This document shows, in pieces, positions 6,604-28,646 of a stretch of DNA of 32,253 nucleotides; the stretch's first letter is position 1, and each line of letters starts with the position of its first letter. Made by a program: the position numbers and the translations under genes. Origin of the DNA: a virus (lineage: Duplodnaviria; Heunggongvirae; Uroviricota; Caudoviricetes). The notes beneath the pieces were generated by a model. The model had not been told where the DNA came from, ran no database searches, and saw only the letters and a program-made list of their open reading frames with translations. The DNA lies in IMG/VR virus record IMGVR_UViG_2558860288_000008, positions 1 through 32,253 of that record, one strand, 5' to 3'.

Positions 6604-6989
6604 CCGTTTAACTCCGTGGTTAATGGGTGCAACTATTTTCTGTTGGGCAGTGCATGAGACGCTATTTGACCTGGCTGGTCAGTGGATGAAACAACAGATA
6701 AAGAAAAGGCAGGCAATTCGCCCGCCTGTCCTGATTTGTACTCACTCATTTTCCGACTGACAGTTTACATAGCCCAAAAGCTATCAAATCTGACAGTTTC
6801 CTTTGAGCGAGAAGCGGAAGTTGTTCATTTATACAAGTCTGAAAGATGACTACCGAAGCTACAGCGATTCGGTTCATTCATCCACAAATAGTTCCTTTAC
6901 ATTTCATATGTTGATATCCACAATATGCGACAGAGCAGCGCTATGTTTTTATAACCATATGTTTTTCAATTGCTTTAGTTGAGGTAATA

Positions 6990-8576
6990 ATGATACCAAT
7001 CAAAGATCTAACTCTTGGCTATGCTGATGCTGAAAATTATAAGAGAAGGGAGAATAAAGAATTACTTAACAAAGTGTTCATACGTGATAATCACCTATCT
7101 AGATTATGTGAACCAAATATATCGTTTCTTGTAGGAGAGAAAGGTACTGGTAAAACCGCATACTCTATCTATCTCTCAAATAACAATATTAACAATACGC
7201 TAGCTACAACTAAATATATAAGAGAGACAGAATATCAAAAATTTATCACTCTTAAATCTGAAAAGCATTTAAATTTGTCTGACTTCTCTGGCATATGGAA
7301 AGTTATTCTATATTTATTAATATCAAAACAAGTATTAGATAAAGAAGGGAAAATTTCAAAGTTACTAAATTATTCAAAATTCTCATCACTTAATGATGCA
7401 ATAGATGAGTATTATCTTAAGGCATTTTCACCAGAAATAATTCAAGCCCTCAGTTTTGTTCAAGAGTCAAAAGTTGCAGCCGAACTACTTCATAAGCATG
7501 CAACCTTAAAAGGTGAAGAAAGAGAGTCTTTATCTTTTTCTGAGAGCAGATTTCAGATAAATTTATTTTATATACAAAAAAAATTTGAAGAGGCCTTTAG
7601 CCAAATACGTTTATCTCAAAATCATATTTTATTTATCGATGGTATTGATATCCGCCCTTCCTCAATTCCATACGATGATTATCTAGAATGTATAAAAGGA
7701 TTAGCTCACGCAGTCTGGGAGATTAACAACGATTTCTTCCCAAGTATAAAGGGAGGAAAAGGGAGAATGAAGGCCGTTCTCTTGATCAGGCCAGATATAT
7801 TTGAATCCATAGGATTACAAAATCAAAACGCAAAAATCAGAGATAATTCAGTATTCTTGGACTGGCGGACAGAATATGTTAACCACCGTAGCTCTCAATT
7901 ATTTGAGGTATTAGATCATCTGCTTAGGACTCAGCAAGACATGGCCCTTAAAAAGGGACAGGCATGGGACCATTATTTCCCTTGGGATTCACCCAACGTC
8001 CATGATAATTATAACCACCCCACATCATTTATTAATTTCCTTCGCTGGTCATATTATCGCCCAAGAGATATATTACGGATGCTCGAAATTATCAAATCAC
8101 ACGCCAGCGGTGATGATGGGAAAAATCAATTTAGTCTAGATGACTTTGAAAGTCCTAGCATGCAAAGAGATTACTCTAACTATTTACTTGGAGAAATAAA
8201 AGATCATTTATCATTTTATTATGGAAGTGAACATTATGAGATTTTTTTAAAGTTCTTTGAATTCCTCTCTGGAAAAGATACTTTTGATTACGCTGAATAC
8301 CTCTTAGCATATGAACAACTTGAAACTCATATTAGTTCCATTTCCACAACAAAACCAAAATTCATGACAACTGCAAATGACTTCCTTCAGTTTCTTTTTG
8401 GTCTCAATGTAATATGCTATATAGAAACAACCGAAGATAATAATAGGTTTATACGTTGGTGTTTTAGAGAAAGAAGTTACGCAAATATCTCACCAAAAAT
8501 AAAAACAGGAATGAAATATCAAATATTTTATGGCTTGGAAAAAGCCTTAAACGTCGGAAAGGCTTTAAAAAAATAA
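6990..8576 (+). CDS. AT-rich accessory gene: 528-aa P-loop NTPase of unassigned family (candidate anti-phage/exclusion protein at the Z/fun position)
   Basis: Walker A GEKGTGKT (aa 49-56, nt 7134-7157), Walker B-like hhhhD (HILFIDGID), and a possible sensor-like RPRDILRML motif. GAGG ribosome-binding site before the ATG at 6990. Strand is opposite to the flanking late genes and the base composition is strongly AT-rich compared with them. Confidence 0.8.
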   Translation: MIPIKDLTLGYADAENYKRRENKELLNKVFIRDNHLSRLCEPNISFLVGEKGTGKTAYSIYLSNNNINNTLATTKYIRETEYQKFITLKSEKHLNLSDFSGIWKVILYLLISKQVLDKEGKISKLLNYSKFSSLNDAIDEYYLKAFSPEIIQALSFVQESKVAAELLHKHATLKGEERESLSFSESRFQINLFYIQKKFEEAFSQIRLSQNHILFIDGIDIRPSSIPYDDYLECIKGLAHAVWEINNDFFPSIKGGKGRMKAVLLIRPDIFESIGLQNQNAKIRDNSVFLDWRTEYVNHRSSQLFEVLDHLLRTQQDMALKKGQAWDHYFPWDSPNVHDNYNHPTSFINFLRWSYYRPRDILRMLEIIKSHASGDDGKNQFSLDDFESPSMQRDYSNYLLGEIKDHLSFYYGSEHYEIFLKFFEFLSGKDTFDYAEYLLAYEQLETHISSISTTKPKFMTTANDFLQFLFGLNVICYIETTEDNNRFIRWCFRERSYANISPKIKTGMKYQIFYGLEKALNVGKALKK

Positions 8577-8585
8577 AAAACAAAA

Positions 8586-8610
8586 ATGGCGAGTGGAAAA
8601 CACTTGCCAT
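8586..8610. terminator. Hairpin (10-bp stem ATGGCGAGTG / CACTTGCCAT) flanked by an A/T tract; terminator-like, most convincing for minus-strand transcripts
   Basis: Stem-loop read directly; on the minus-strand RNA it is followed by a long U-tract (UUUUGUUUUUAUUUUU); on the plus strand it follows the NTPase stop but lacks a 3' U-run. Confidence 0.45.
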
Positions 8611-8976
8611 TCACCTCATAGTAATAACTAATAGTAGATAATTTTAACGGGACGCAGACCGAATTGTGTAATCTGAACATTTACCAAATATTTAAAATAT
8701 TATCTGAACTGAGTGATGCCAATCATAGCGCCAATACCTCTTCGCAAGTGACACTTGATGCAGAAAGCTATTTTTAAAACACGCGATAATAATCATCTCC
8801 TATGCCCTATCATCTTATGATTCTGTACAGGAAGACGCACGTTAGCTATGCAATCAAAACACACTGATATGACCATTGTTCTTGTTTATAAGGTCCGCTT
8901 TTGGCACAGAGTGGACTTCAGATTAGGCTTTACTCTGTGCCATAGATATGTAAGTTCACAACAGAGGTCATACAAC

Positions 8977-9504
8977 TTATTGCGGCATTTCCGGCCATTC
9001 AGGATTTGCAGGATCCACACGGCTGACCAGAACGCTGTAACGTTCCCATGACTCCAGTCGTGCACGTTCCTCATCCGTCGCCATATTCAGCCTGACAGCG
9101 CGTTCCAGTGGCTGAATAACGTTTTCCGCTTCGGAAAGTAACGCGGCCTTTTGTGATTCTGCCTGTTGTTGCTGTTCATCTGCCGTATAAATCCGTTTAA
9201 CCACAGCACCATCCTTAAACATCCATTTACCTGAGTCGTCAGCACGTCGGTTGGAGGTAATATCAGGAACCTCAACAACGCTAAAACCTTCAGGATTAAG
9301 CGTTGAAGCATCTCTGGTGATAGCGACAATAATATTATTTTCATCGTAAACAATCTTTATTGTGTCTGGCTGAAAGTTCTTCACTTCCTCATACCAGTTT
9401 TTTCCGTCTTCGGACCATAACCAGATAACATCAAAATTCTTTGTTAGCTGATATTGCTCTTTTGTTTTTGGATTACCTGACTTAATGTTCTTTAAATGCT
9501 GCAT
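8977..9504 (-). CDS. G: Tail fibre assembly chaperone G, 175 aa
   Basis: Translation [41 protein letters not shown]...; immediately downstream of H; length matches P2 gpG. Confidence 0.85.
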
Positions 9505-9507
9505 AAC

Positions 9508-11517
9508 TTACACCTGCGCAACGTTATACCATGTGCCATTGATGTATTTTTGTATCGGCCTGAAGATGGCTTCATCATCGCCATCTACTTCACCAATGAT
9601 TCTTAATCCGGTAATCGTGTGTCCGGCTTTTTCATAACGACCACCTCGCGCCATCAATTGAACAACTCGCGTACCCAGGCGAACATCTTTCACATAGCGG
9701 GAATCAAAATTTCCCCAGTTGCTGGGTTGCATCTGACCGTTAACAGCAAATATTACCGAGTTATCTGTATTTCGCTGGCTATAGAAATGCCATCCGGCCT
9801 CATCGCCTAACTCTGCAACCACTGGACGGGTGGAAGCACCCCATAAATTAAAGGTAATATTCTTCGTGGATGTATTAGAGCTGGATAGCGAGAACTTTTT
9901 ACTATCACCTGCCTGAATATTTTTAAAAGCAATAGCCACTCCATTCTGAAAACGGAATACACGCTGACTGTTAGCATAAACATCAAGAATACCGTCTCCA
10001 TTCTGTTTAAATCCGGTATCATTATCACCAAGAACAATAGAGCTACCACCTAGTGCATTCGTCGTACCAACTCCAAAACAGCCATTAATGACGGCATTAA
10101 CAAGAATATTTAGTGCATCCCATTTCAACGTCATCAGGTCTTTTGTTGTGGTACTCTGGCGGCTTCTCCATTTGAAATATTCATTGCCGTTATCCCCCGT
10201 TTCAAACCACATGTATGAATCAGTGTCACCATCGGCATCATTTTTAAATCCAATCTTCGCCCAGTCAGTATTTCGAATCCAGGCAAGGATTGAGTCGTTT
10301 TCAAAAGTAAGTCCACCGGACAAGGTATCGCCATTTTTTTGCACGGCGTTCCCGGCTCGGTTTACCGTTTCCTGTAAACCGAGATATTCGATAACGGCGG
10401 CAACGGTCGATTTAGCCAGAATATCCCGCCCGACTTTTGTCAGGGTCGCCAGGCTGGCAACATCATTCCCCGTAAAATACGGAAACCTGTCTGCCGCAGT
10501 AGCAAGCCCCGCCAGCGCCGTCAGGGTAGCATCTTTCGGTTGCTTACCCGCAAGCGCATTAGTCATGGTGGTAGCAAAATTCGGGTCATTGCCCAGCGCC
10601 GCCGCCAGCTCGTTCAGCGTATTCAGTGCGTCAGGCGACGAGTCTACAAGGGCGGCAATCGCGGCCATAACGAAAGCCGTGTTTGCGATCTGAGTATTAT
10701 TCGTTCCCTGTCGCGCAGTTGGCGTCGTTGGCGTTCCGGTCAGTGCAGGGCTGTTTAATGGCGCTTTTTTGTTCGTTTCATCCATTACCGTCTTAACGGC
10801 TTTTGGTGTTGCGGCGAGCGTTTCAGACGTGCTGTTGGTGGCGCTACTAAGCTGGACAAGGCCTTTTCGCGCTGTGGTGGCGTCCTGTGCGGTATATTTC
10901 CCGTTAGCCAGGTCATACGCGGCCTTTACCGCTTTCGGCGTTGCGGCCAGTGTTTCAGACGTGCTGTTGGTCGCACTGCTTAACTGAGTAAAACCTTTTG
11001 CGGTCAGCGAGGCGTCAGGGTGACGTCGTGACTGTTCATGTTCTGCAATTTTGTCATCAACGTAATCCTGCGTCGCCATCACCGTTGTGGTGTCGATGGT
11101 CAGATCCACTGAGGCCACACTGCTGACGATAATGACCATGCGGCAGGTCTGCGAACGTCCTGAGCCTTCGGCAAGGGCTGGCTTATAACTTTCGGCCATG
11201 TTCGCCACGGCAATTAACGTTCCCGCATCATCGTACAGGCCAAGCTCACGCATCCAGAAACCGCCCACCTCCGGCGGAATAACCAGCTCTGCGATAATAT
11301 AATTACTGTTTCGTTTGTCCTGGCTGATTTTGTTCAGCGCATGTCGCCAGACTTCGTGGATAAGCCCGGTCTGTCCGGCATCCGGGACAGGCAATTTACC
11401 ACCGCCATCCCCGACGGCCATCGTGGTAATGTTGACCTTCCGCCCTCCCGGCGCGGTTGCCGCTGCCAGCTTTGCTGCACCGGCAGTGGTGATAACGGTT
11501 TTGAATTTTGTGCTCAT
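9508..11517 (-). CDS. H: Tail fibre protein H, 669 aa
   Basis: Translation MSTKFKTVITTAGAAKLAAATAPGGRKVNITTMAVGDGGG... with an internal repeated motif QLSSATNSTSETLAATPKAVK; length and position match P2 gpH. Confidence 0.9.
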   Translation of the reverse strand: MSTKFKTVITTAGAAKLAAATAPGGRKVNITTMAVGDGGGKLPVPDAGQTGLIHEVWRHALNKISQDKRNSNYIIAELVIPPEVGGFWMRELGLYDDAGTLIAVANMAESYKPALAEGSGRSQTCRMVIIVSSVASVDLTIDTTTVMATQDYVDDKIAEHEQSRRHPDASLTAKGFTQLSSATNSTSETLAATPKAVKAAYDLANGKYTAQDATTARKGLVQLSSATNSTSETLAATPKAVKTVMDETNKKAPLNSPALTGTPTTPTARQGTNNTQIANTAFVMAAIAALVDSSPDALNTLNELAAALGNDPNFATTMTNALAGKQPKDATLTALAGLATAADRFPYFTGNDVASLATLTKVGRDILAKSTVAAVIEYLGLQETVNRAGNAVQKNGDTLSGGLTFENDSILAWIRNTDWAKIGFKNDADGDTDSYMWFETGDNGNEYFKWRSRQSTTTKDLMTLKWDALNILVNAVINGCFGVGTTNALGGSSIVLGDNDTGFKQNGDGILDVYANSQRVFRFQNGVAIAFKNIQAGDSKKFSLSSSNTSTKNITFNLWGASTRPVVAELGDEAGWHFYSQRNTDNSVIFAVNGQMQPSNWGNFDSRYVKDVRLGTRVVQLMARGGRYEKAGHTITGLRIIGEVDGDDEAIFRPIQKYINGTWYNVAQV
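10798..11003. repeat. Imperfect ~75-bp direct repeat, two copies 132 bp apart, inside gene H
   Basis: The DNA block ...gttgcggcgagcgtttcagacgtgctgttggtggcgct... recurs as ...gttgcggccagtgtttcagacgtgctgttggtcgcact...; it encodes the duplicated peptide with a 44-residue period. Confidence 0.8.
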
Positions 11518-12963: not shown

Positions 12964-13311
12964 TCAACTCACAGGGATGGTTAACGAAAGTGGCTGGCCG
13001 GTGTCGTTGTGCTGGCCGGTTAACGTGACCGTCATTCGCCCGTCAAAACTGCGCTCAGTGGTGACGGATGACAGGGTGACGCGGGGTTCCCATTTCAGCA
13101 CTGCCATGTAACAGGCGACCTTAATCTGCAACTCAAGCGCCGGAGTCTGCGGCTGGTCAATCATTGACGCCAGCAACGAGCCGTAATCACGACGCATCAC
13201 CCGTGAGCTGACGGGTGTGCGCAGGATATCGCCGATACTCTGGCTGATATGTTCAAGGTCAGTGACAGTCAGGCCATCACTGCGATTCATTCCGAGATAA
13301 CGCGCTGTCAT
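12964..13311 (-). CDS. W: Baseplate wedge protein W, 115 aa
   Basis: Translation MTARYLGMNRSDGLTVTDLEHISQSIGDILRTPVSSRVMRRDYGS...; length matches P2 gpW; overlaps the V stop. Confidence 0.9.
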   Translation of the reverse strand: MTARYLGMNRSDGLTVTDLEHISQSIGDILRTPVSSRVMRRDYGSLLASMIDQPQTPALELQIKVACYMAVLKWEPRVTLSSVTTERSFDGRMTVTLTGQHNDTGQPLSLTIPVS

Positions 13312-13943
13312 AGAGGACTCCCGGTTGTGCCGCCGCTGTCGCCGGGGTGTTTATGGGTATGCAGTACCTTCCCGTTTGATGAGAGTTCACCGCCGGTGTG
13401 TTCAATGTTGCCACGCATCGTCCCGCCCTTCTGTACTTCCAGCGTGCCGGTAATCAGCCTGTTGGTGCAGACCACCTCCGGTGTGTCCAGGGTGATGCGG
13501 GTTGACGCTTTCACCATGACCACCGGCACCGTGGCAGTAACAGAATCAGAAGCCGTCACGCTGGCCGTTTTAATTCCGCTTACCGTGAGTGCACTGGTTT
13601 CGGGTTCATACTCAATCACCGCCCCGTCAGGGAAACGGATATGCAGGGCATCCGCCGACGCAGACGGCGCGGGGTTATCGCCGGAATAAATCCCCGGCAG
13701 AACGAACGCCGTGTCAAGTTCACCACCCACGGCCAGAATCAGCACCTGTTCCCCCACGGAAGGTGCCCACCATGTGCGCGAACGTCCTGCGCGATGGGTC
13801 AGCCACTGAAGCCAGTCGGTGCACATGCCGCCGGTCTGCACGCGGCAGCGACCGGCGTTAAGGTCGGTTTCGACGATAATGCCGGTGCGAATCATGTTGC
13901 GCAGTGCGCGCGCGAGTTCCTGAATATTTGCGAGAGTGTTCAT
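13308..13943 (-). CDS. V: Baseplate spike/assembly protein V, 211 aa
   Basis: Translation from the internal ATG: MNTLANIQELARALRNMIRTGIIVETDLNAGRCRVQTGG...; the track ORF begins at an upstream TTG; ATG at 13941-13943 (minus). Confidence 0.9.
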   Translation of the reverse strand: MNTLANIQELARALRNMIRTGIIVETDLNAGRCRVQTGGMCTDWLQWLTHRAGRSRTWWAPSVGEQVLILAVGGELDTAFVLPGIYSGDNPAPSASADALHIRFPDGAVIEYEPETSALTVSGIKTASVTASDSVTATVPVVMVKASTRITLDTPEVVCTNRLITGTLEVQKGGTMRGNIEHTGGELSSNGKVLHTHKHPGDSGGTTGSPL

Positions 13944-14026
13944 GCATGTGAGATTGCACAATATATAAAAGTTATGCTATCTGGATTCATTTGTAGAACT
14001 ACCAGACAACATTCAAGGAGAGCGTA

Positions 14027-14812
14027 ATGGTCAGCTATAATGTGACTAATGTGTGGGGGCTAATCGTTTTTTTCCTTTGTAGCTTTGCAGTATTAGCATT
14101 TTTTAGCTTTGGTAAAAGTAACCTTATGAGGCTTATTGCACATTATTTCAATTTTGGATATTCAGACAAAAAATTAAAAAGACTTGACCGCGAGTGGCGC
14201 GACATTCAACTATTTAAAATAATTAACGGAATCAATGTATCAGGCATTGAAAATGTGAGAATGATACAGCAGGGACTGATTGATGGAAAACTAAAAACAT
14301 CGTATTTTTTCCTTACTCGCATCTGGGGTGACATAACAAAACCACCACACATAATTAAAACAATAATTGTAATTCTGGCCAGTATTTTTTACATTCTCCT
14401 CGCATGTTACATACACAACGAACAATCCGTTATAGTAAGGGATGCCATAGGCATACCATATAAAAACATGATGTACTATGTTTATAGTGACAAAGTTCTT
14501 TTATCCTTCAAAAATAAAGCAGTTGAATTTAATAAAACTTATAGCCTTGCCGATTGCAAGAGACTGCAAAACGTATTTATAAAAGACACACTTCCTGAGA
14601 TCGCCTGCAATAAGCTCTTACAGCTAAACGAGGAGGACTCCGAATGGTTAAGTCAGGAGATTAAAGATAATAACAGTCACAAAAAAGCATTATTAATACT
14701 ATCCCTCGTCTATTTCACTTCAGGTCTGGTTATATTCCTGTCATATACAAAATTCTTTTACGCCAATAAGAAGGTTTTAGAATACAAAGCATCAAATAAA
14801 AATCACTCATAA
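14027..14812 (+). CDS. AT-rich accessory gene: 261-aa predicted membrane protein (three hydrophobic helices), function unknown, at the orf30 position between S and V
   Basis: GGAG ribosome-binding site before the ATG at 14027; hydrophobic segments VWGLIVFFLCSFAVLAFFSF, IIKTIIVILASIFYILLACYI and ALLILSLVYFTSGLVIFLSY; opposite strand to the late genes; AT-rich. Confidence 0.75.
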   Translation: MVSYNVTNVWGLIVFFLCSFAVLAFFSFGKSNLMRLIAHYFNFGYSDKKLKRLDREWRDIQLFKIINGINVSGIENVRMIQQGLIDGKLKTSYFFLTRIWGDITKPPHIIKTIIVILASIFYILLACYIHNEQSVIVRDAIGIPYKNMMYYVYSDKVLLSFKNKAVEFNKTYSLADCKRLQNVFIKDTLPEIACNKLLQLNEEDSEWLSQEIKDNNSHKKALLILSLVYFTSGLVIFLSYTKFFYANKKVLEYKASNKNHS

Positions 14813-14820
14813 ACCTCTAA

Positions 14821-14851
14821 ACATTGAGCGACCAGCATGGCCGCTCAATGT
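14821..14851. terminator. Bidirectional terminator-like hairpin between the convergent membrane-protein gene and S
   Basis: Perfect 10-bp inverted repeat ACATTGAGCG ... CGCTCAATGT with an 11-nt loop, followed by T-rich sequence on both strands. Confidence 0.5.
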
Positions 14852-14883
14852 TTAATTGCGCATCAGCCTCTGCCTGGATAAAA

Positions 14884-15336
14884 CTAACGCTCAAGGTGAA
14901 CCAGGATAATCTCTTCAATCATCTGCACATCCTCACCGGTAAAGCCGAGCAGAGGACGCGCCGGATAATCAATTTTCTTACCGTCTTTCCGGTTTTCTTC
15001 CGACAGACCGAACTGATGCACACTGGCGATTTTCGGCGACTTCCCGCCGTAAAATTCCATTGATGCCTGCTCCGGGCTGGCGCGGATATGCAAAAAACGA
15101 CTGGTAATAAGTTTCGCAAACATTTTTCGCTTAACACGGCCAGTCTTTTTTCTGGCGCTCTGCTGCTGGCGTGGCGCGTAGGGTGTGCCGTCCGGGGCTT
15201 TCTGAGCCATCACCCGACGCTGCTGACTCTGCCGCAGACGTTTCGCCAGTTCGGCACTCAGTCGCCGACGCCCTGACGGTGACAGCGACTCAATCAGTCC
15301 GGTCAGCCGGTCTTCAAAACGCTTAAACTCATTCAT
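14884..15336 (-). CDS. S: Tail completion protein S, 150 aa
   Basis: Translation MNEFKRFEDRLTGLIESLSPSGRRRLSAELAKRLRQSQQRRV...; position after R; length matches P2 gpS. Confidence 0.9.
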   Translation of the reverse strand: MNEFKRFEDRLTGLIESLSPSGRRRLSAELAKRLRQSQQRRVMAQKAPDGTPYAPRQQQSARKKTGRVKRKMFAKLITSRFLHIRASPEQASMEFYGGKSPKIASVHQFGLSEENRKDGKKIDYPARPLLGFTGEDVQMIEEIILVHLER

Positions 15337-24240: not shown

Positions 24241-24662
24241 CGCCCGCTTCATGGGTCGGTTTTAATGCAGGTGCATGACCACCATGGTGTCGCGCCTATT
24301 CTGACGGAGCACGATCTAAACTAGCAGCTCCAACGCATGCAAAACAATGCGCCTAATGCTTGCACATCTGAAAATAAAAATCGTGTAGAAAGATATAGCA
24401 AAGTCTGCATATTAAAGCTGGCTGGCACGCAACTCATATCGCAGTGATTTGCCAATTACATTGCGCAAAATTTACACTAACAACGGTTATCAAGAAGCAG
24501 GCGCAAATTGATTATCAAAAACTCGATCTAATCTATTGATCTAGACACGAATATTTATGCATCCTGATATTGTTTTAAAGGTCTTTGATTGCCTAATCAA
24601 GTCCTGCACTACTTTGGCGTACAACACTTACATAAAGTTGAAAACTACAGAAGGGCACAAGA

Positions 24663-25748
24663 ATGGGTTACGAAGTTGATTTCTTAGCAGTTGGAGAAAA
24701 AAAAAGTGGAGATGCTATCTGCATAAGATGGGGCAACCTCCACGGAACAAGAGCAGAGCAAAAAGTTGTCGTAATTGATGCGGGGTACGCAAGCACTGGT
24801 CCACAAATAATTGAACATTTACAGAAATACTATCATACAAATACTATTGACTTACTCATATCCACGCATCCAGATAGCGACCATGCTGGCGGCCTTGAGC
24901 ATGTGATTGAGAATGCGGAAGTCAAAGAGTTCTGGATTCACCAGCCTTGGGAGCATAATGAAAATCTCGCGCAGGAATTTGCTGATGGAAGGATAACAGA
25001 TGCAAGTATTGCCAGACGTATACAAGATAATCTACAAAAAGCCTATGATGCCGTCAAATCAGCGAAAAAAAAAGGAATAGAAATTAAGGAGCCTTTTCAA
25101 GGCAGGACTTGGGACAATTCTAAACTGGTTGTTATTGGACCAACACAAGCATACTATGAAACATTAATCCCCGATTTTGCAAGAATGCCTGAAAAAGCAG
25201 AAACAACTGCAACCAGTGGTACAGATGCATATAACTACTTTTTTGAGAAAGCCAAAGAACAAGTCGAGTATATTGCTGATTGGTTCTCTGATGAGGGAAT
25301 TGATGACAAGGACACAACTACTGCACAAAACAATTCAAGCGTTATATTAAAAATTGAAATTGACAATAAAACACTAGTATTTACAGGTGATGCAGGAATA
25401 ACTGCATTAGATATGGCTGCTGATCATATAAATAATAACTCATTATCATTTATTCAAGTGCCCCACCATGGAAGCAGGAGAAACATCGGTCCAGCGGTGC
25501 TAAATAAGCTCGTTGGAAATATTGTAAGCGAAGGAGGAAGAAGTGGTGTTTGTGCATTTATATCATGCGCACCGGATTCCGATAAACACCCTCATCAAGC
25601 GGTCATTAATGCTTTTACAAGGCGTGGAGCCAAAGTAGTCGCCACAGAAGGCACCAATAAACGCCATTCTAGTAATGCCCCCGCCAGAGATGGCTGGACT
25701 GCAGTCACCCCACGCTCATACGCAAGGAGTTATAAGACTGAAGAATAA
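24663..25748 (+). CDS. AT-rich accessory gene: 361-aa metallo-beta-lactamase-fold hydrolase, ComEC/Rec2-C-terminal-like (candidate nuclease; candidate anti-phage effector)
   Basis: MBL motifs read in order: VVVIDAG (Asp motif), THPDSDHAGG (variant of HxHxDH), VPHHGS, and a C-terminal ...SCAPDSDKHPHQAVINAFTRRGAKVVATEG resembling the ComEC MBL domain tail. GAAGGG ribosome-binding site before the ATG at 24663. Sits in the cos-to-A interval where P2 carries tin/old. Confidence 0.75.
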   Translation: MGYEVDFLAVGEKKSGDAICIRWGNLHGTRAEQKVVVIDAGYASTGPQIIEHLQKYYHTNTIDLLISTHPDSDHAGGLEHVIENAEVKEFWIHQPWEHNENLAQEFADGRITDASIARRIQDNLQKAYDAVKSAKKKGIEIKEPFQGRTWDNSKLVVIGPTQAYYETLIPDFARMPEKAETTATSGTDAYNYFFEKAKEQVEYIADWFSDEGIDDKDTTTAQNNSSVILKIEIDNKTLVFTGDAGITALDMAADHINNNSLSFIQVPHHGSRRNIGPAVLNKLVGNIVSEGGRSGVCAFISCAPDSDKHPHQAVINAFTRRGAKVVATEGTNKRHSSNAPARDGWTAVTPRSYARSYKTEE

Positions 25749-25753
25749 TTCGT

Positions 25754-25775
25754 TAAGCTGCCTTAGGGCAGCTTA
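25754..25775. terminator. Bidirectional terminator-like hairpin between the convergent MBL and membrane-protein genes
   Basis: Perfect 9-bp inverted repeat TAAGCTGCC-ttag-GGCAGCTTA followed by TTATT; it overlaps the stop codon of the minus-strand gene. Confidence 0.55.
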
Positions 25776-26251
25776 TTATTAGCCTTACTCACTCTTAATG
25801 TAATAAACTTAATTTGCTTAACGTACGACACAATAAAAACAAAAATCAAAAACAATGAAATCCATTTCGACGCCATGTAATCACCACCAACTACAAACGA
25901 AACAAAAAACAAAGAAAACAAAAAAACCAAGGACATAGAGAATAACGTCCTATACATATTTGCAGTTTCTTGAAGAAGCTCTATTTTATTATCCTTTCTA
26001 CATGCTGAGATATATTCCTCATATGGAACAAATTTTACCAGCCCCAAAAATTTCAACACAGGCTCAAAAACAATAGACCCAATCCTTCCGATAATTATCC
26101 CCGTAAAATAGTAAAGTACCACATTCTTAACAACATCATCTGTGGATAATATCACATTGGTTGCCCGCTCAAACAAATAAATAAACAAAGCACCGGGAAA
26201 GAGATTGTTAAATATATTATAAGACGATATTTTTTCCCATAAACCATCCAT
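25763..26251 (-). CDS. AT-rich accessory gene: ~162-aa polytopic membrane protein (about four hydrophobic helices), function unknown
   Basis: Translation ...GALFIYLF..., ...YYFTGIIIGRIGSIVF..., ...LFSMSLVFLFSLFFVSFVVGG..., ...WISLFLIFVFIVSYV...; ATG at 26249-26251 (minus) with an AAAGGTG ribosome-binding site; the track ORF begins at an upstream GTG. Confidence 0.65.
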   Translation of the reverse strand: MDGLWEKISSYNIFNNLFPGALFIYLFERATNVILSTDDVVKNVVLYYFTGIIIGRIGSIVFEPVLKFLGLVKFVPYEEYISACRKDNKIELLQETANMYRTLFSMSLVFLFSLFFVSFVVGGDYMASKWISLFLIFVFIVSYVKQIKFITLRVSKANNKLP

Positions 26252-26366
26252 ACAACACACCTTTTAACCAATTTTAAAGACGCCATTTTCATCAAAAGAA
26301 ACAAAAATAGCAAGAACATCAGAACAAACTCTTTGAACACCTGAAAATATTATGTTCCGACACCAT

Positions 26367-28646
26367 TCATTTTGTAAAAGCAGAATATCCCAAACACACA
26401 TCGATTGTAGGATATATAAACGTCTTCCTGCCATATGTTATGGTAGCCCCTCGCGCCAGCGCCTCAAGCTCCCATCGCTGCGGCCTGATACCGTTCTGAG
26501 CAAGGTCAACGCGGATACGGGTAATTTGCATTCGTTCCGACCGGGTCAGTCTGGCCGATGGCGCTATTTCATGCGGTTTTAACGGGCTTCCGTTTCTTTG
26601 CTGACGGTTTGGTCTTCTCAGGCCGTGTTTTAATGCGCTTCTGAGCGCCCTCACGACCTCCGGGTCATTCCATTCGATAACACCGTCATCTACCAGATTA
26701 AGCACTGCTGCGGCGTGCTCAGAAGGCGTGGGAGCCGGTAACGAAGTATCACCACCGGTGAGCTTTCCACAGTTATTGACAGGACTCCGAGGCGCGGCGA
26801 TGCCGCTTTTTAAAGTCAAAGGCTCAACGACCGGAACTTTCGGCACAATGCGCCAGTCCGTCGTTCTGGTGATATGAATATGACGCGCGCCGAGATGCGG
26901 CGCGTAAATGCCGACCACTCTCTCGACTTCTTCCTCGTACTCGTTAACGTCATCCGACGGGCTACGGGCGACTCTGACAGTCTGGCAATCACGCGGAACA
27001 TTTGCCCCACCCTGCGCGCTGATATACAACGCAAAATCACCACTGTCTGCGGCGGCACGTGCAGCCTCAACGCGTTCGTCAAACTCATCAGCAATGCTGA
27101 CGCCGCGAGGCAATTTGCGTAGTTCACGGTAAGCCCCCATTGTCGGCAGGCCAACCGTTTTAAATTGCGGGATGCGCCACGTTGACGCCCATGCGGTAAC
27201 AGCCGCAGCAGTATCTTTCAGCGGCCTGCCGGTATCGTTATCGAGCTGACCATCCAGTGCATAGCCGTCGATGTTTTTTGAAATGTATTTCGCGATATAT
27301 CCCGCAGCACCGCCCCGGTTAAGGTGTTTTGCCTGAAAACGGTTTCGCGCGGCTCCTCTTTCGTCGCCATCCTCTTTGAGCGCATAGCGACGCATGATTT
27401 CGATAATCTGGTTACGCTGGCGTGGATTACAAAAAAGCATCATATGCCAGTGCGGCGTTCCGTCGTGGTGTGGCTCGACGACTCGCAAACCGTAGACCTG
27501 TAAATCATTATCCTTGAATGCCGTGCGCATCAGGCTCCAGATACGGCAGAGATAACGCTGCGCATCCTTTGGATTAAATGCCTCATCGTTCCAGCCGTGA
27601 TTAAGCTGGACGGTTTTACTTTCGCCTTTTCCGACCTGACGTGTCGGGTGATACTTTGACGGCGCGGTCAGCGTGATAAACATCCCCACATCACCCTCTG
27701 CGGCGGCGTAACGCTCAATACCGGCAATGGTGTTCATCAGCTCCATCCGGCGAATTTCAGGATTAGAAATACTGCCCATCACCTTACTGATAAGGTCGAT
27801 GCGCTCGCCGGTTTCCCTGTTTTCAAGGTCACACGATTTAAGAAATTCCAGATTTGCCTGGCGGCGCGCACGCACATCACGAATGGCATGTTTACTGGCA
27901 TAAGGAGAACGGTCTTTATTGACCTCCCCGACAGCAATCAGTAACGCCTCATGCCAGCGCATACGCTGGCCTTTAAGCTGATGAGTCCACCACTCATCGT
28001 TAAACAGACGGGCAATGGCAGAATATGCCTGCCTCGTGGTCATCTGTCCTTTACGGTATTTTTTCCAGTAGAGAGGGGAAATATTGAAAGCACGTGCAGC
28101 GCCAGCAACATGACCATACAGATGCGCCTGCGCCTCATCTGTAAACAGCGATTCTTTCTCGCCATGTGCATCAACCCATGCATCGCAGAGTTCCTCATAC
28201 ATCATGAAAAGCTGCGATGAGATACGGGCGGCAAACTTTTTCAGCTCCTTGTCATTCATCCCCGGCAGACGCGCATAATGGTCACGCTCTGCCAGAAACA
28301 GCAACGACGCGTCGGTATTCATTTCATGGCGCTGATTCACGCGCTCAATACGCGGCCATAAACGGCGCTGAAAAGTGGATGTGAGGAAATAAAACCCGTG
28401 CACCGGGCTTTTATTGCGCCGGATGTAGTCATAGCGTGAAGTAAACAGCGAGCGCAAAAAGTAAGGCAGGCGATTAATCGTGGATAAAACACCTTGCACC
28501 TGACGCATCTCGTCACGTGTAAGGGGTCTTTCGCGCCCGACGGCCTCGCGTGGCGCGTTCCATGCATAAGCACCGGTAAACGTCTCACCGGTGCCTGCGG
28601 CAAATACTGACGGAGGGACAAAACGCCCGGAGGCTTTAACGGCCAT
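26367..28646 (-). CDS. A: Replication initiation protein A (rolling-circle nickase), ~759 aa
   Basis: Translation from the ATG at 28644-28646 (minus): MAVKASGRFVPPSVFAAGTGETFTGAYAWNAPREAVGRERPLTRDEMRQ...; contains a paired-histidine motif (HHDGTPHWHMM) and YxxK-type motifs (GYIAKYISKN) of rolling-circle initiators. Confidence 0.9.
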   Translation of the reverse strand: MAVKASGRFVPPSVFAAGTGETFTGAYAWNAPREAVGRERPLTRDEMRQVQGVLSTINRLPYFLRSLFTSRYDYIRRNKSPVHGFYFLTSTFQRRLWPRIERVNQRHEMNTDASLLFLAERDHYARLPGMNDKELKKFAARISSQLFMMYEELCDAWVDAHGEKESLFTDEAQAHLYGHVAGAARAFNISPLYWKKYRKGQMTTRQAYSAIARLFNDEWWTHQLKGQRMRWHEALLIAVGEVNKDRSPYASKHAIRDVRARRQANLEFLKSCDLENRETGERIDLISKVMGSISNPEIRRMELMNTIAGIERYAAAEGDVGMFITLTAPSKYHPTRQVGKGESKTVQLNHGWNDEAFNPKDAQRYLCRIWSLMRTAFKDNDLQVYGLRVVEPHHDGTPHWHMMLFCNPRQRNQIIEIMRRYALKEDGDERGAARNRFQAKHLNRGGAAGYIAKYISKNIDGYALDGQLDNDTGRPLKDTAAAVTAWASTWRIPQFKTVGLPTMGAYRELRKLPRGVSIADEFDERVEAARAAADSGDFALYISAQGGANVPRDCQTVRVARSPSDDVNEYEEEVERVVGIYAPHLGARHIHITRTTDWRIVPKVPVVEPLTLKSGIAAPRSPVNNCGKLTGGDTSLPAPTPSEHAAAVLNLVDDGVIEWNDPEVVRALRSALKHGLRRPNRQQRNGSPLKPHEIAPSARLTRSERMQITRIRVDLAQNGIRPQRWELEALARGATITYGRKTFIYPTIDVCLGYSAFTK
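26776..26795. other. Candidate origin of replication / A-protein nick region inside the 3' part of gene A
   Basis: The reverse complement of plus 26776-26795 is GCGCCTCGGAGTCCTGTCAA, which matches my recollection of the P2 ori nick-site region inside A (memory only). Confidence 0.4.

What the first reader, a model, noticed from the sequence alone, without database searches (positions are those of the whole stretch)
13944..14883. Third moron between V and S: 261-aa three-helix membrane protein on the opposite strand, bracketed by hairpins
An AT-rich ORF with its own ribosome-binding site interrupts the late-gene cluster in antisense orientation and ends at a perfect 10-bp-stem terminator shared with S. 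It has three hydrophobic helices (N-terminal, central, C-terminal) and hydrophilic loops rich in Lys, Asn and Tyr. This is the P2 orf30 position. Small membrane proteins at such sites often act in superinfection exclusion or abortive infection, but the function here is unknown.
Basis: partly seen in the sequence, partly recalled or inferred. Interest (0 to 1): 0.5.

Follow-up and report, generated by a model that had tools for sequence, protein, structure and literature searches.

The report
Phage P2 orf30 membrane protein gene
This is the long-known but still unexplained gene orf30 of bacteriophage P2, a small three-pass inner-membrane protein. It belongs to a fast-evolving, always AT-rich family that keeps the same slot between two tail genes in P2-like prophages across enterobacteria, and it most likely acts for the lysogen at the cell envelope.

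Summary
The ORF is real: window 14027-14812, + strand, 261 aa, 34% GC in 57% GC flanks. It has an AAGGAG ribosome-binding site, three hydrophobic helices and a 13-bp hairpin before gene S. It is phage P2 orf30 itself (1 aa and 3 nt different), and the window is a P2-type prophage. So the feature is already known, annotated "nonessential", with no function assigned in the annotation or papers I could search.

New here:
- Orf30 belongs to a family of about 250-270 aa proteins. One member passes the Pfam threshold for DUF6216 (uncharacterised).
- Ten of 12 distant relatives (17-39% identity) lie in the same place, beside V on the opposite strand, in P2-like prophages of Serratia, Sodalis, Buttiauxella and metagenomes. 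Two of these prophages are decayed remnants. Enterobacter has lone chromosomal copies.
- All 13 family genes measured have GC3 of 0.25-0.42, against 0.57-0.79 in neighbours.
- The gene evolves about 7 times faster than W, V, S and R (dN/dS 0.46 against about 0.1). The membrane helices are the least constrained parts and the two soluble domains the most.
- Predicted topology is N-terminus out and C-terminus in, with a conserved cytoplasmic helical domain and a periplasmic domain carrying two conserved cysteines.
- No match to any known defence or exclusion family, and no informative fold match.

The best guess, unproven, is a lysogen-expressed envelope protection (phage exclusion) factor.

The parts
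13944..14026 (.). V-orf30 intergenic region (83 bp, 36% GC). It holds the late promoter PV for V, which reads leftward. Any promoter for orf30 must also lie here or further upstream inside V.
   Evidence: The P2 annotation maps the V transcription start to window about 13943. The region is 96-100% conserved among 10 alleles. No consensus sigma-70 site was called. The only candidate is a weak extended -10, TGcTATCTG at 13975-13983 with TTGCAC at 13954-13959 (read).
13985..14012 (-). Ogr/Delta activator binding site of late promoter PV (TGT-N11-ACA dyad at 13992-14008).
   Evidence: Feature 'activator binding site; activation of pV promoter' in AF063097 at 10239-10266, mapped to the window. The dyad was found.
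14015..14020 (+). Ribosome-binding site AAGGAG, 6 nt before the ATG.
   Evidence: Read. AAGGAG is also present upstream of the Serratia homologs.
14027..14812 (+). orf30 coding sequence (261 aa plus TAA stop), the same gene as P2 orf30.
   Evidence: It matches PHROG 2407 end to end at E 5.5e-149. The AlphaFold2 model has pLDDT 84.3 and pTM 0.75.
14051..14110 (+). TM1 (residues about 9-28), a signal-anchor-like helix. The N-terminus is predicted to be periplasmic.
   Evidence: Hydropathy. The N-terminal tail has no K or R in any of the 29 family members. dN/dS is 1.17, so it is weakly constrained.
14111..14347 (+). Predicted cytoplasmic helical domain (residues 29-107). It is the most conserved part and carries the motif D-x-Q-L-F-[KR]-x-x-N-G-I-N-V...D-A...I...G.
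   Evidence: Alignment A2: G68 and G87 are invariant, Q61 and D76 nearly so. Net charge is zero or positive (0 to +9) in all 29 members. dN/dS is 0.34.
14348..14413 (+). TM2 (residues about 108-129).
   Evidence: Hydropathy. dN/dS is 0.71.
14414..14686 (+). Predicted periplasmic domain (residues 130-220): a four-stranded sheet plus helices, with two conserved cysteines (C177, C194).
   Evidence: Secondary structure of the model. C194 is invariant, and the loop holds exactly 2 Cys in 28 of 29 members. dN/dS is 0.30.
14687..14746 (+). TM3 (residues about 221-240), part of one long helix spanning residues 202-260.
   Evidence: dN/dS is 0.87.
14747..14809 (+). Lys-rich C-terminal tail (residues 241-261), predicted cytoplasmic. 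It contains a conserved N-x-K...K motif.
   Evidence: K+R fraction is 0.19 across the family. K254 is nearly invariant. dN/dS is 0.29.
14818..14854 (.). Two-way hairpin with a perfect 13-bp stem, between orf30 and S. P2 annotates it as the putative rho-independent terminator of the O late operon. It probably also ends the orf30 transcript.
   Evidence: z -5.3 and -5.0. P2 feature at 9397-9433. Conserved among alleles, with changes mostly in the loop.

Best explanation
Shown: the feature is bacteriophage P2 gene orf30, carried by a P2-type prophage. It encodes a 261-aa inner-membrane protein with three membrane helices.

Predicted from sequence and the model:
- The N-terminus lies in the periplasm.
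- An 80-residue helical domain lies in the cytoplasm.
- A 90-residue sheet-plus-helix domain with a probable disulfide lies in the periplasm.
- A Lys-rich C-terminal tail lies in the cytoplasm.

Shown: the protein belongs to an uncharacterised family linked to Pfam DUF6216. That family has long occupied the gap between baseplate-spike gene V and tail-completion gene S in P2-like phages of Enterobacterales. It always sits on the strand opposite the late genes and is always AT-rich.

Inferred mechanism:
- The gene is transcribed on its own from the prophage. The promoter overlaps or abuts the Ogr-dependent PV promoter, and transcription ends at the shared hairpin.
- It works for the lysogen rather than for virion production.
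- The three helices serve only as anchors. The work is done by the two soluble domains on either side of the inner membrane.
- The most likely job is envelope-level protection of the lysogen against other phages, either by blocking genome entry at the inner membrane or by sensing entry and aborting infection. That would make it a fourth exclusion gene of P2, beside old, tin and fun(Z).

The identity part is near certain. The stated confidence refers to the functional part.
For: Identity:
- 99.7% nt and 260/261 aa to P2 orf30, with the same neighbours.

It is a real protein:
- The ORF is improbable by chance.
- 461 of the 464 E. coli genomes that carry it have a full-length copy, and there are no indels among the 10 alleles compared.
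- dN/dS is about 0.3 in both soluble domains.
- The hydropathy pattern is kept at 17-25% identity.
- The AlphaFold2 model is confident (pLDDT 84.3).

Family and fixed position:
- The profile search found 44 cluster representatives.
- hhalign between the P2 group and the distant group gave 99.95% probability over 251 columns.
- The Sodalis member passes the DUF6216 cutoff, 28.9 against 27.3 bits.
- 10 of 12 relatives looked up lie beside V on the opposite strand.

Useful to the host independently of virions:
- The ORF is intact at the centre of two decayed remnants, J'-W-V-orf30-S' (L004 and L019).
- Lone chromosomal copies with their own hairpin occur in two Enterobacter species.

Independent expression signals:
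- AAGGAG ribosome-binding site and the downstream hairpin.
- Serratia relatives carry TGnTACAAT extended -10 boxes about 27 nt before the ATG.

Pattern typical of conflict genes:
- Serratia prophages with W 99%, V 94% and S 91% identity have orf30 proteins only 46% identical.
- dN is about 7 times that of neighbouring genes.
- One locus carries two tandem paralogs.

Analogy within P2: the other AT-rich, opposite-strand, nonessential genes are all annotated as lysogenic-conversion genes that block other phages: fun(Z) blocks T5, tin blocks T-even phages and old blocks lambda.

Anchor argument: the TM helices have the highest dN/dS (0.7-1.2) and no conserved polar residues.
Against: - No experiment or transcript data were available. 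No sigma-70 consensus promoter was found upstream in P2 itself.
- No similarity to any PADLOC defence model or to any Pfam or NCBIfam family of known function.
- In the papers I could search, orf30 is listed only as 'unknown'. The exclusion phenotypes annotated in the P2 record belong to old, tin and fun(Z), and none to orf30.
- From my own knowledge of the classical work of Bertani and Six, P2 lysogens can be superinfected by P2 and give double lysogens. Orf30 therefore cannot be a general block to P2-type injection.
- The elevated dN/dS (0.46, below 1) is concentrated in the TM helices. It can be read as relaxed constraint rather than an arms race.
- About 60% of E. coli P2-like prophages lack the gene.
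Confidence: 0.35

Rival explanations
1. Orf30 is a lysogenic-conversion factor aimed at something other than phages. For example, it could be an inner-membrane immunity or tolerance protein against tailocins, colicins or contact-dependent toxins, or an envelope-stress or colonisation factor. The periplasmic domain would bind a host envelope component and the cytoplasmic domain would dock on a host protein.
For: It explains the same observations as the leading hypothesis: retention in prophage remnants and as a lone Enterobacter gene, purifying selection on both soluble domains, and independent expression signals. It also fits the absence of any phage-exclusion phenotype assigned to orf30 in the P2 annotation.
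Against: There is no homology to any known immunity, toxin or envelope family. The family is almost confined to one slot of P2-like phages (10 of 12 contexts). The allele divergence between near-identical prophages is easier to explain by conflict with other mobile elements.
Confidence: 0.2
2. Orf30 is an accessory gene of the phage's own lytic or establishment cycle. It could tune lysis timing, protect the infected cell from secondary adsorption, or help genome entry or exit. In that case it is dispensable in the laboratory but useful in nature.
For: The gene sits between tail and lysis genes, and its upstream region overlaps the Ogr-controlled PV promoter. It is annotated nonessential rather than as a conversion gene. 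In several relatives its 3' end overlaps S, which suggests coupling to late transcription.
Against: It is on the opposite strand from all late operons. A divergent Ogr-dependent start, 55 nt from the dyad, would fall inside the ORF and remove the conserved TM1 (coordinates). Convergent late transcription would oppose its expression rather than drive it. It stays intact in remnants that can no longer make virions and as a lone chromosomal gene. Most E. coli P2-like prophages, and the sequenced P2-like phages Wphi, fiAA91-ss and pro147, lack it.
Confidence: 0.15
3. Orf30 forms an oligomeric membrane channel or pore, like a CorA-type funnel or a holin-like effector. When triggered it would depolarise the membrane and kill the infected cell (abortive infection).
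Confidence: 0.08
4. The region is not a functional protein gene. It would instead be an AT-rich spacer or H-NS-bound insulator between two late operons, or the template of an antisense RNA, with the ORF present only by accident.
For: The AT-richness is extreme and persistent, including at third codon positions. No clear promoter was found in P2.
Against: The ORF is improbable by chance (1.7e-9). The reading frame, length and three-helix pattern are kept down to 17% identity. dN/dS is about 0.3 in the loops. The structure model is confident. The empty site works with only 66 bp.
Confidence: 0.02

Closest known systems
Bacteriophage P2 orf30 (AF063097 9439-10224, protein AAD03281; PHROG 2407)
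   Same: It is the same gene: 260/261 residues (I141 here, T in P2), 3 nt differences, and the same neighbours V and S, Ogr site and terminator hairpin. PHROG 2407 matches end to end.
   Different: Nothing of substance. The window copy is a prophage allele. An identical copy exists in E. coli FDAARGOS_1286.
Pfam DUF6216 (PF19723), an uncharacterised family with a profile of 270 positions
   Same: Same length. Relatives match collinearly from end to end. The Sodalis member P0030 scores 28.9 bits against a cutoff of 27.3, over 10-255 of the protein and 10-265 of the profile. Nine of the 29 family members give weak hits. The P2 group and the group that holds P0030 are homologous at 99.95% hhalign probability.
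   Different: P2 Orf30 itself gives no Pfam hit even at E<=1. The family name carries no functional information, and the only paper that holds the name does not have it in its title or abstract and was not read.
The other P2 lysogenic-conversion genes: old, tin and fun(Z)
   Same: They are AT-rich, nonessential, on the strand opposite the neighbouring phage genes, placed at operon boundaries, and variable among P2-like phages.
   Different: There is no sequence relationship. P2 annotates Old as an exonuclease that blocks lambda, Tin as blocking T-even phages, and Fun(Z) (about 530 aa) as blocking T5; Orf30 is a membrane protein with no known phenotype. The old/tin locus (between genes A and Q) is a very diverse hotspot, with 1,650 gene arrangements reported in PMC9122126. 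The V-S gap has essentially three states in E. coli: empty, orf30 or an R18C-type ORF.
Inner-membrane superinfection-exclusion proteins (P22 SieA, T4 Imm, HK97 gp15)
   Same: They are small phage-encoded inner-membrane proteins. SieA is expressed from the prophage (PMC10883804 abstract). HK97 gp15 is a moron inside a tail-gene cluster (my own knowledge).
   Different: No sequence or fold similarity was detected. Orf30 is larger, with structured domains on both sides of the membrane. No block of DNA entry has been shown. P2 can superinfect P2 lysogens (my own knowledge).
CorA/ZntB/Mrs2 divalent-cation channels
   Different: Orf30 has no GMN motif and a different order and number of TM helices. 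Its soluble domain is predicted on the opposite side of the membrane, and its TM helices are not conserved. Foldseek found nothing.

Membership tests
P2 orf30 (same gene) | Near-identical sequence to AF063097 orf30 | tested here: met
   99.7% nt over 1000 bp; 260/261 aa.
P2 orf30 (same gene) | Located between V and S on the strand opposite the late genes | tested here: met
Pfam DUF6216 (PF19723) | Score at or above the Pfam gathering cutoff (27.3 bits) | tested here: not met
   P2 Orf30 has no hit at E<=1. The relative P0030 passes at 28.9 bits. Eight other relatives give sub-threshold collinear hits.
Pfam DUF6216 (PF19723) | Homology to bona fide members by profile comparison | tested here: met
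   The profile of the P2 group finds P0030 at E 8.5e-14. hhalign of A3 against A4 (which contains P0030) gives 99.95% probability, E 2.2e-38, over 251 columns.
Moron (independent accessory cassette in a phage late region) | Absent from closely related phages at the same site | tested here: met
   Wphi, fiAA91-ss and pro147 have a 66-bp V-S gap. The empty junction occurs in at least 1024 of 5426 E. coli genomes, against orf30 in 464.
Moron (independent accessory cassette in a phage late region) | Base composition unlike the surrounding genome | tested here: met
   34% against 57% GC; GC3 0.36 against 0.58-0.66.
Moron (independent accessory cassette in a phage late region) | Own promoter and own terminator | tested here: inconclusive
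   The hairpin is present and significant. No consensus promoter was found in P2. Extended -10 boxes occur in Serratia relatives. No transcript data.
Moron (independent accessory cassette in a phage late region) | Recent horizontal acquisition | tested here: not met
   Homologs at 17-39% identity occupy the same slot in several genera, all with low GC3. The AT-richness is a maintained family trait, not a fresh import signature.
Known anti-phage defence systems (PADLOC-DB 2.0) | Match to a model of a known or candidate defence protein | tested here: not met
   0 families at E<=1.
Superinfection-exclusion membrane proteins (SieA, Imm, gp15 type) | Inner-membrane location | tested here: met
   By prediction only: three hydrophobic helices and a positive-inside pattern across 29 members.
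Superinfection-exclusion membrane proteins (SieA, Imm, gp15 type) | Sequence or fold homology to a characterised exclusion protein | tested here: not met
   Nothing in Pfam, PADLOC or NCBIfam. BFVD and PDB Foldseek gave E>0.05 and TM<0.25.
Superinfection-exclusion membrane proteins (SieA, Imm, gp15 type) | Expressed from the prophage and blocks genome entry of a superinfecting phage | not testable with these tools
   This needs RNA-seq of lysogens plus plating, adsorption and DNA-entry assays.
CorA-type channels | GMN signature, two C-terminal TM helices, cytoplasmic funnel domain | tested here: not met

The most novel reading that the evidence does not exclude
The Orf30/DUF6216 family would be a previously unrecognised single-gene, inner-membrane phage-exclusion (or tailocin/bacteriocin-immunity) module. 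It would have co-evolved with P2-like phages at one fixed locus. Allele swapping through the conserved V and S flanks would give different specificities. The persistently low GC, including third codon positions, would be selected because it places the gene under H-NS-type silencing or timing control.
Probability: 0.25. Interest if true: 0.6.

Novelty: already known. Interest (0 to 1): 0.3.

Why it matters
P2 is a textbook phage, and orf30 still has no function assigned in its annotation or in any paper I could search. Taken alone, the finding only rediscovers that gene.

The comparative picture built here makes the question easier to test:
- The gene is one member of a family tied to one slot of P2-like prophages, present in about 9% of complete E. 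coli genomes.
- The family is kept in decayed prophages and evolves much faster than its neighbours.
- Its two soluble domains, on opposite sides of the inner membrane, are the constrained parts.

If it proves to be an exclusion or immunity factor, it would complete the set of P2 conversion genes. It would also add a membrane-level, single-gene system that current defence catalogues miss. If it does not, it is an ordinary nonessential phage accessory gene.

Tried and rejected
- Pfam, NCBIfam and PADLOC scans of the protein. These gave nothing, or one meaningless sub-threshold hit to a tick-cell protein family.
- PDB sequence search with the family profile. This gave only chance hits to NDH subunits at E >= 0.08.
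- Foldseek against PDB and viral models. Nothing was significant. The top hits were claudin/TARP-type folds at E > 0.1 and TM < 0.25. The afdb50 library was not available.
Folding gave no signal.
- A consensus promoter scan. It found no site upstream of orf30 and only internal matches, about twice the number expected from shuffles (6 found against 3.1).
- A divergent, Ogr-dependent late start for orf30. Rejected because a start 55 nt from the dyad centre would fall inside the ORF and remove the conserved TM1.
- Whether other occupants of the V-S gap are hidden family members. The R18C 246-aa ORF and the extra 273-aa ORF in L005 are not (HMM search).
- The search for related loci with the full family alignment failed because the alignment was too divergent. 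The closer subset found only three Enterobacter loci.
- Literature. There is no functional study of orf30. It is mentioned only as 'unknown' and as one of three variable regions. Two papers could not be retrieved.
- Diversifying selection on the periplasmic domain. Not supported: dN/dS there is 0.30, and the excess change is in the TM helices.
Full report
**1. What is in the sequence**

The window holds an ORF at 14027-14812 on the + strand, with an ATG start and 261 codons. Its GC is 0.34-0.35, while both flanks are at 0.57.
- An AAGGAG box at 14015-14020 lies 6 nt before the ATG.
- The neighbours on the - strand are V (13308-13943) and S (14884-15336). The finding's coordinates are exactly the V-S gap.
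- Hydropathy shows three peaks, at residues 9-28, 108-129 and 221-240. The protein is rich in L, I, K, S, N, F and Y.
- At this composition an open frame of 261 codons has a probability of about 1.7e-9. In 1000 shuffles of the gap, none gave a stop-free run longer than 183 codons, against 271 observed.

A hairpin with a perfect 13-bp stem plus three inner pairs lies at 14818-14854. It folds far better than shuffles on both strands (z -5.3 and -5.0). Its T-runs are weak, and the consensus scan did not call it. The upstream side has no significant structure (z +0.21).

**2. Identity**

The 1-kb region is 99.7% identical to bacteriophage P2. The protein differs from P2 Orf30 at one residue (I141 against T). 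The first 24 kb of the window match P2 at 97.9%, so the window is a P2-type prophage in reverse orientation.

The P2 record annotates the following:
- orf30 as "nonessential";
- the hairpin as the putative terminator of the O late operon;
- a 28-bp Ogr activator site for the V promoter, which maps to window 13985-14012;
- the V transcription start at about 13943.

Family databases give no function. Pfam and PADLOC find nothing, NCBIfam gives one meaningless weak hit, and PHROG 2407 ("unknown function") matches end to end.

The literature held here mentions orf30 in only two ways. It is listed as "unknown" and as one of three variable regions of P2-like phages, together with the tin-old and Z/fun regions (PMC3091744). 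Phage R18C carries a different ORF at this place (PMC6823313). Recent hotspot studies analyse the cos-proximal (A-Q) locus or mention the Z/fun and other loci, and none of the passages I searched mentions orf30 or the V-S gap.

**3. A family tied to one slot**

A word-indexed search found only four close clusters and one 39% relative. An exhaustive profile search of 1.84 billion cluster representatives found 44 hits, of which about 25 are full-length proteins of 239-271 aa at 16-31% identity.

I looked up the genomic context of 12 distant members.
- Ten lie directly beside V, on the opposite strand, in P2-like prophages. These include five Serratia loci, Sodalis sp. RH24, Buttiauxella agrestis and metagenomic contigs.
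- An Enterobacter MAG shows the same arrangement.
- Two of the ten are decayed remnants that keep only J'-W-V-orf30-S' (L004 in S. rubidaea, and L019). L019 has two tandem paralogs.
- Two Enterobacter species carry a lone chromosomal copy among ordinary genes, with no V or S remnant and with its own hairpin.
- One member (P0016) lies in an unrelated context.

The link to Pfam is as follows.
- The Sodalis member passes the Pfam cutoff for DUF6216 (28.9 against 27.3 bits, end to end).
- Eight other members give weaker collinear hits.
- The P2 group and the distant group are homologous over 251 columns at 99.95% hhalign probability.
- P2 Orf30 is therefore a divergent relative of DUF6216, a family with no known function. 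The only paper that holds the name does not have it in its title or abstract, and I did not read it.

**4. Site occupancy**

Wphi, fiAA91-ss and pro147 have only 66 bp between V and S. R18C has an unrelated 246-aa ORF on the late strand.

Counts among 5426 complete E. coli genomes:

| State | Genomes |
|---|---|
| V gene present | 1581 |
| Empty V-S junction | at least 1024 |
| orf30 present | 464 (461 full length, all chromosomal) |
| R18C-type ORF | 77 |

The gap is thus mostly a presence/absence polymorphism of one family. It is not a highly diverse cargo hotspot like the old/tin locus.

In P2 the whole 66-bp block is replaced: the PV promoter is AT-rich and the hairpin sits next to S. In the Serratia loci the GC-rich block of the empty site is kept next to V, and the orf30-like gene follows it.

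**5. Evolution**

All 13 family genes examined have 33-38% GC and GC3 of 0.25-0.42. Their neighbours have GC3 of 0.57-0.79, in hosts of 51-62% GC. Because the family has diverged to about 20% identity, the low GC is a maintained trait rather than the mark of a recent import.

The gene changes much faster than its flanks.
- Between Serratia prophages L003 and L008, W, V and S are 99, 94 and 91% identical, but the orf30 proteins only 46%.
- Among ten E. coli and Yersinia-phage alleles, which have no indels, pooled dN/dS is 0.46 for orf30 against 0.10-0.12 for W, V, S and R. dN is about seven times higher.

Constraint by domain:

| Region | dN/dS |
|---|---|
| TM1 | 1.17 |
| TM2 | 0.71 |
| TM3 | 0.87 |
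| Cytoplasmic loop | 0.34 |
| Periplasmic loop | 0.30 |
| C-terminal tail | 0.29 |

The helices behave as interchangeable anchors, and the soluble parts carry the constraint. The intergenic regions are 96-99% conserved.

**6. Protein anatomy**

Across 29 members:
- the N-terminal tail never contains K or R;
- loop 1 has zero or positive net charge (0 to +9);
- loop 2 is neutral to acidic in most members and holds exactly two cysteines in 28 of 29;
- the C-terminal tail is K/R-rich.

By the positive-inside rule this gives an N-out, C-in topology, with loop 1 cytoplasmic and loop 2 periplasmic.

The invariant residues are G68, G87, C194 and I212. The strongest motif is D-x-Q-L-F-[KR]-x-x-N-G-I-N-V...D-A in the cytoplasmic domain.

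AlphaFold2 with the 29-sequence alignment gives pLDDT 84.3 and pTM 0.75. The predicted elements are:
- helix 6-40;
- a small helical domain, 48-94;
- helix 109-134;
- four strands, 140-173;
- short helices;
- one long helix, 202-260, that contains TM3.

**7. Expression signals**

The gene has a strong ribosome-binding site and a downstream hairpin.

In P2 the only promoter candidate on the + strand is weak: TTGCAC-N18-TATCTG, preceded by TG, at 13954-13983. It overlaps the core of PV. The scan called nothing there.

Four Serratia relatives carry TGnTACAAT (or TGnTAATAT) extended -10 boxes about 27 nt before the ATG. These lie just beyond the Ogr half-site.

In three relatives the 3' end overlaps S convergently. 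I infer, but have not shown, two things. First, the gene is transcribed on its own in the lysogen. Second, late transcription from PV and from the O operon competes with it.

**8. Most likely function**

*Shown.* It is P2 orf30. It is a real membrane protein of a conserved family, placed outside the late operons. It is optional, retained in dead prophages and as a lone host gene, fast-evolving, and unrelated to known defence families.

*Inferred.* It serves the lysogen at the envelope. The three other AT-rich, opposite-strand, nonessential genes of P2 are all annotated as prophage-expressed blocks to other phages. The pattern of allele divergence and paralog stacking also fits conflict with other mobile elements. 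I therefore commit to a phage-exclusion or entry-sensing role as the single most likely function, at about 35%.

*Against.* No phenotype has been attributed to orf30 in the P2 annotation or in the papers I could search. P2 can superinfect P2 lysogens (my own knowledge of the classical literature). The elevated dN/dS sits in the anchors rather than in the periplasmic domain.

*Rivals.*
- A conversion factor aimed at bacteriocins, tailocins or the host niche (about 20%).
- A lytic-cycle accessory role (about 15%).
- A triggered pore (about 8%).
- A non-gene (about 2%).
- The remainder is something not yet imagined.

**9. Verdict**

The comparative results give a sharper, testable picture but do not make the finding itself novel: a fixed slot across genera, maintained AT-richness, a link to DUF6216, domain-wise constraint, and retention in remnants. 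Interest is 0.3.

Noticed in passing
window 6800-8800: An AT-rich block (28-39% GC) at the position of P2 fun(Z) (P2 15675-17261). P2 annotates fun(Z) as an opposite-strand lysogenic-conversion gene that blocks T5. I did not check whether the window allele equals P2 fun(Z).
   Followed up: partly
window 24400-26400: An AT-rich block just past the cos junction (about 24270), at the position of P2 old and tin. P2 annotates these as lysogenic-conversion genes that block lambda and T-even phages.
   Followed up: partly
window 9200-10400: A moderately AT-rich stretch (40-44% GC) corresponding to the 3' part of tail-fibre gene H and to G. This is the usual mosaic, host-range part of P2-like phages.
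   Followed up: no
L019 6001-6771 and 6900-7658: Two tandem orf30-family paralogs lie side by side next to V, in a decayed P2-like remnant with a J fragment, W, V and an S fragment.
   Followed up: partly
L004 6486-9021 (Serratia rubidaea chromosome): A prophage remnant reduced to ogr, J and W fragments, V, an intact orf30-like gene and S fragments, embedded among ordinary chromosomal genes.
   Followed up: partly
L006 5968-6759 and L007 6001-6753 (Enterobacter chromosomes): Lone orf30-family genes (35% identity to P2 Orf30, 33-35% GC) with homologous flanks in two species. There is no V or S remnant, and each has its own downstream hairpin. The neighbours are an ECF sigma factor, DsbD, an MCP and a LacI-type regulator.
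   Followed up: partly
L005 6915-7736 (-): In an Enterobacter MAG prophage, an additional 273-aa ORF with no Pfam match and no relation to orf30 sits between the orf30-like gene and S.
   Followed up: no
L003 8779-8801, L008 5776-5804, L020 6794-6804: In Serratia and Sodalis prophages the orf30-like gene and S overlap convergently by 11-29 bp, unlike P2, where a 71-bp spacer with the hairpin separates them. The GC-rich hairpin block of the 'empty site' stays next to V in the Serratia loci.
   Followed up: partly
L011 1922-2662 (phage R18C) and 77 E. coli genomes: An alternative occupant of the V-S gap: a 246-aa hypothetical ORF on the late strand, unrelated to orf30, present in 77 of 5426 complete E. 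coli genomes.
   Followed up: partly
L031 5001-5768 (Buttiauxella agrestis): The orf30-family protein P0058 is labelled 'flagellar basal body-associated protein FliL' in its source record. Nothing found here supports that name.
   Followed up: no
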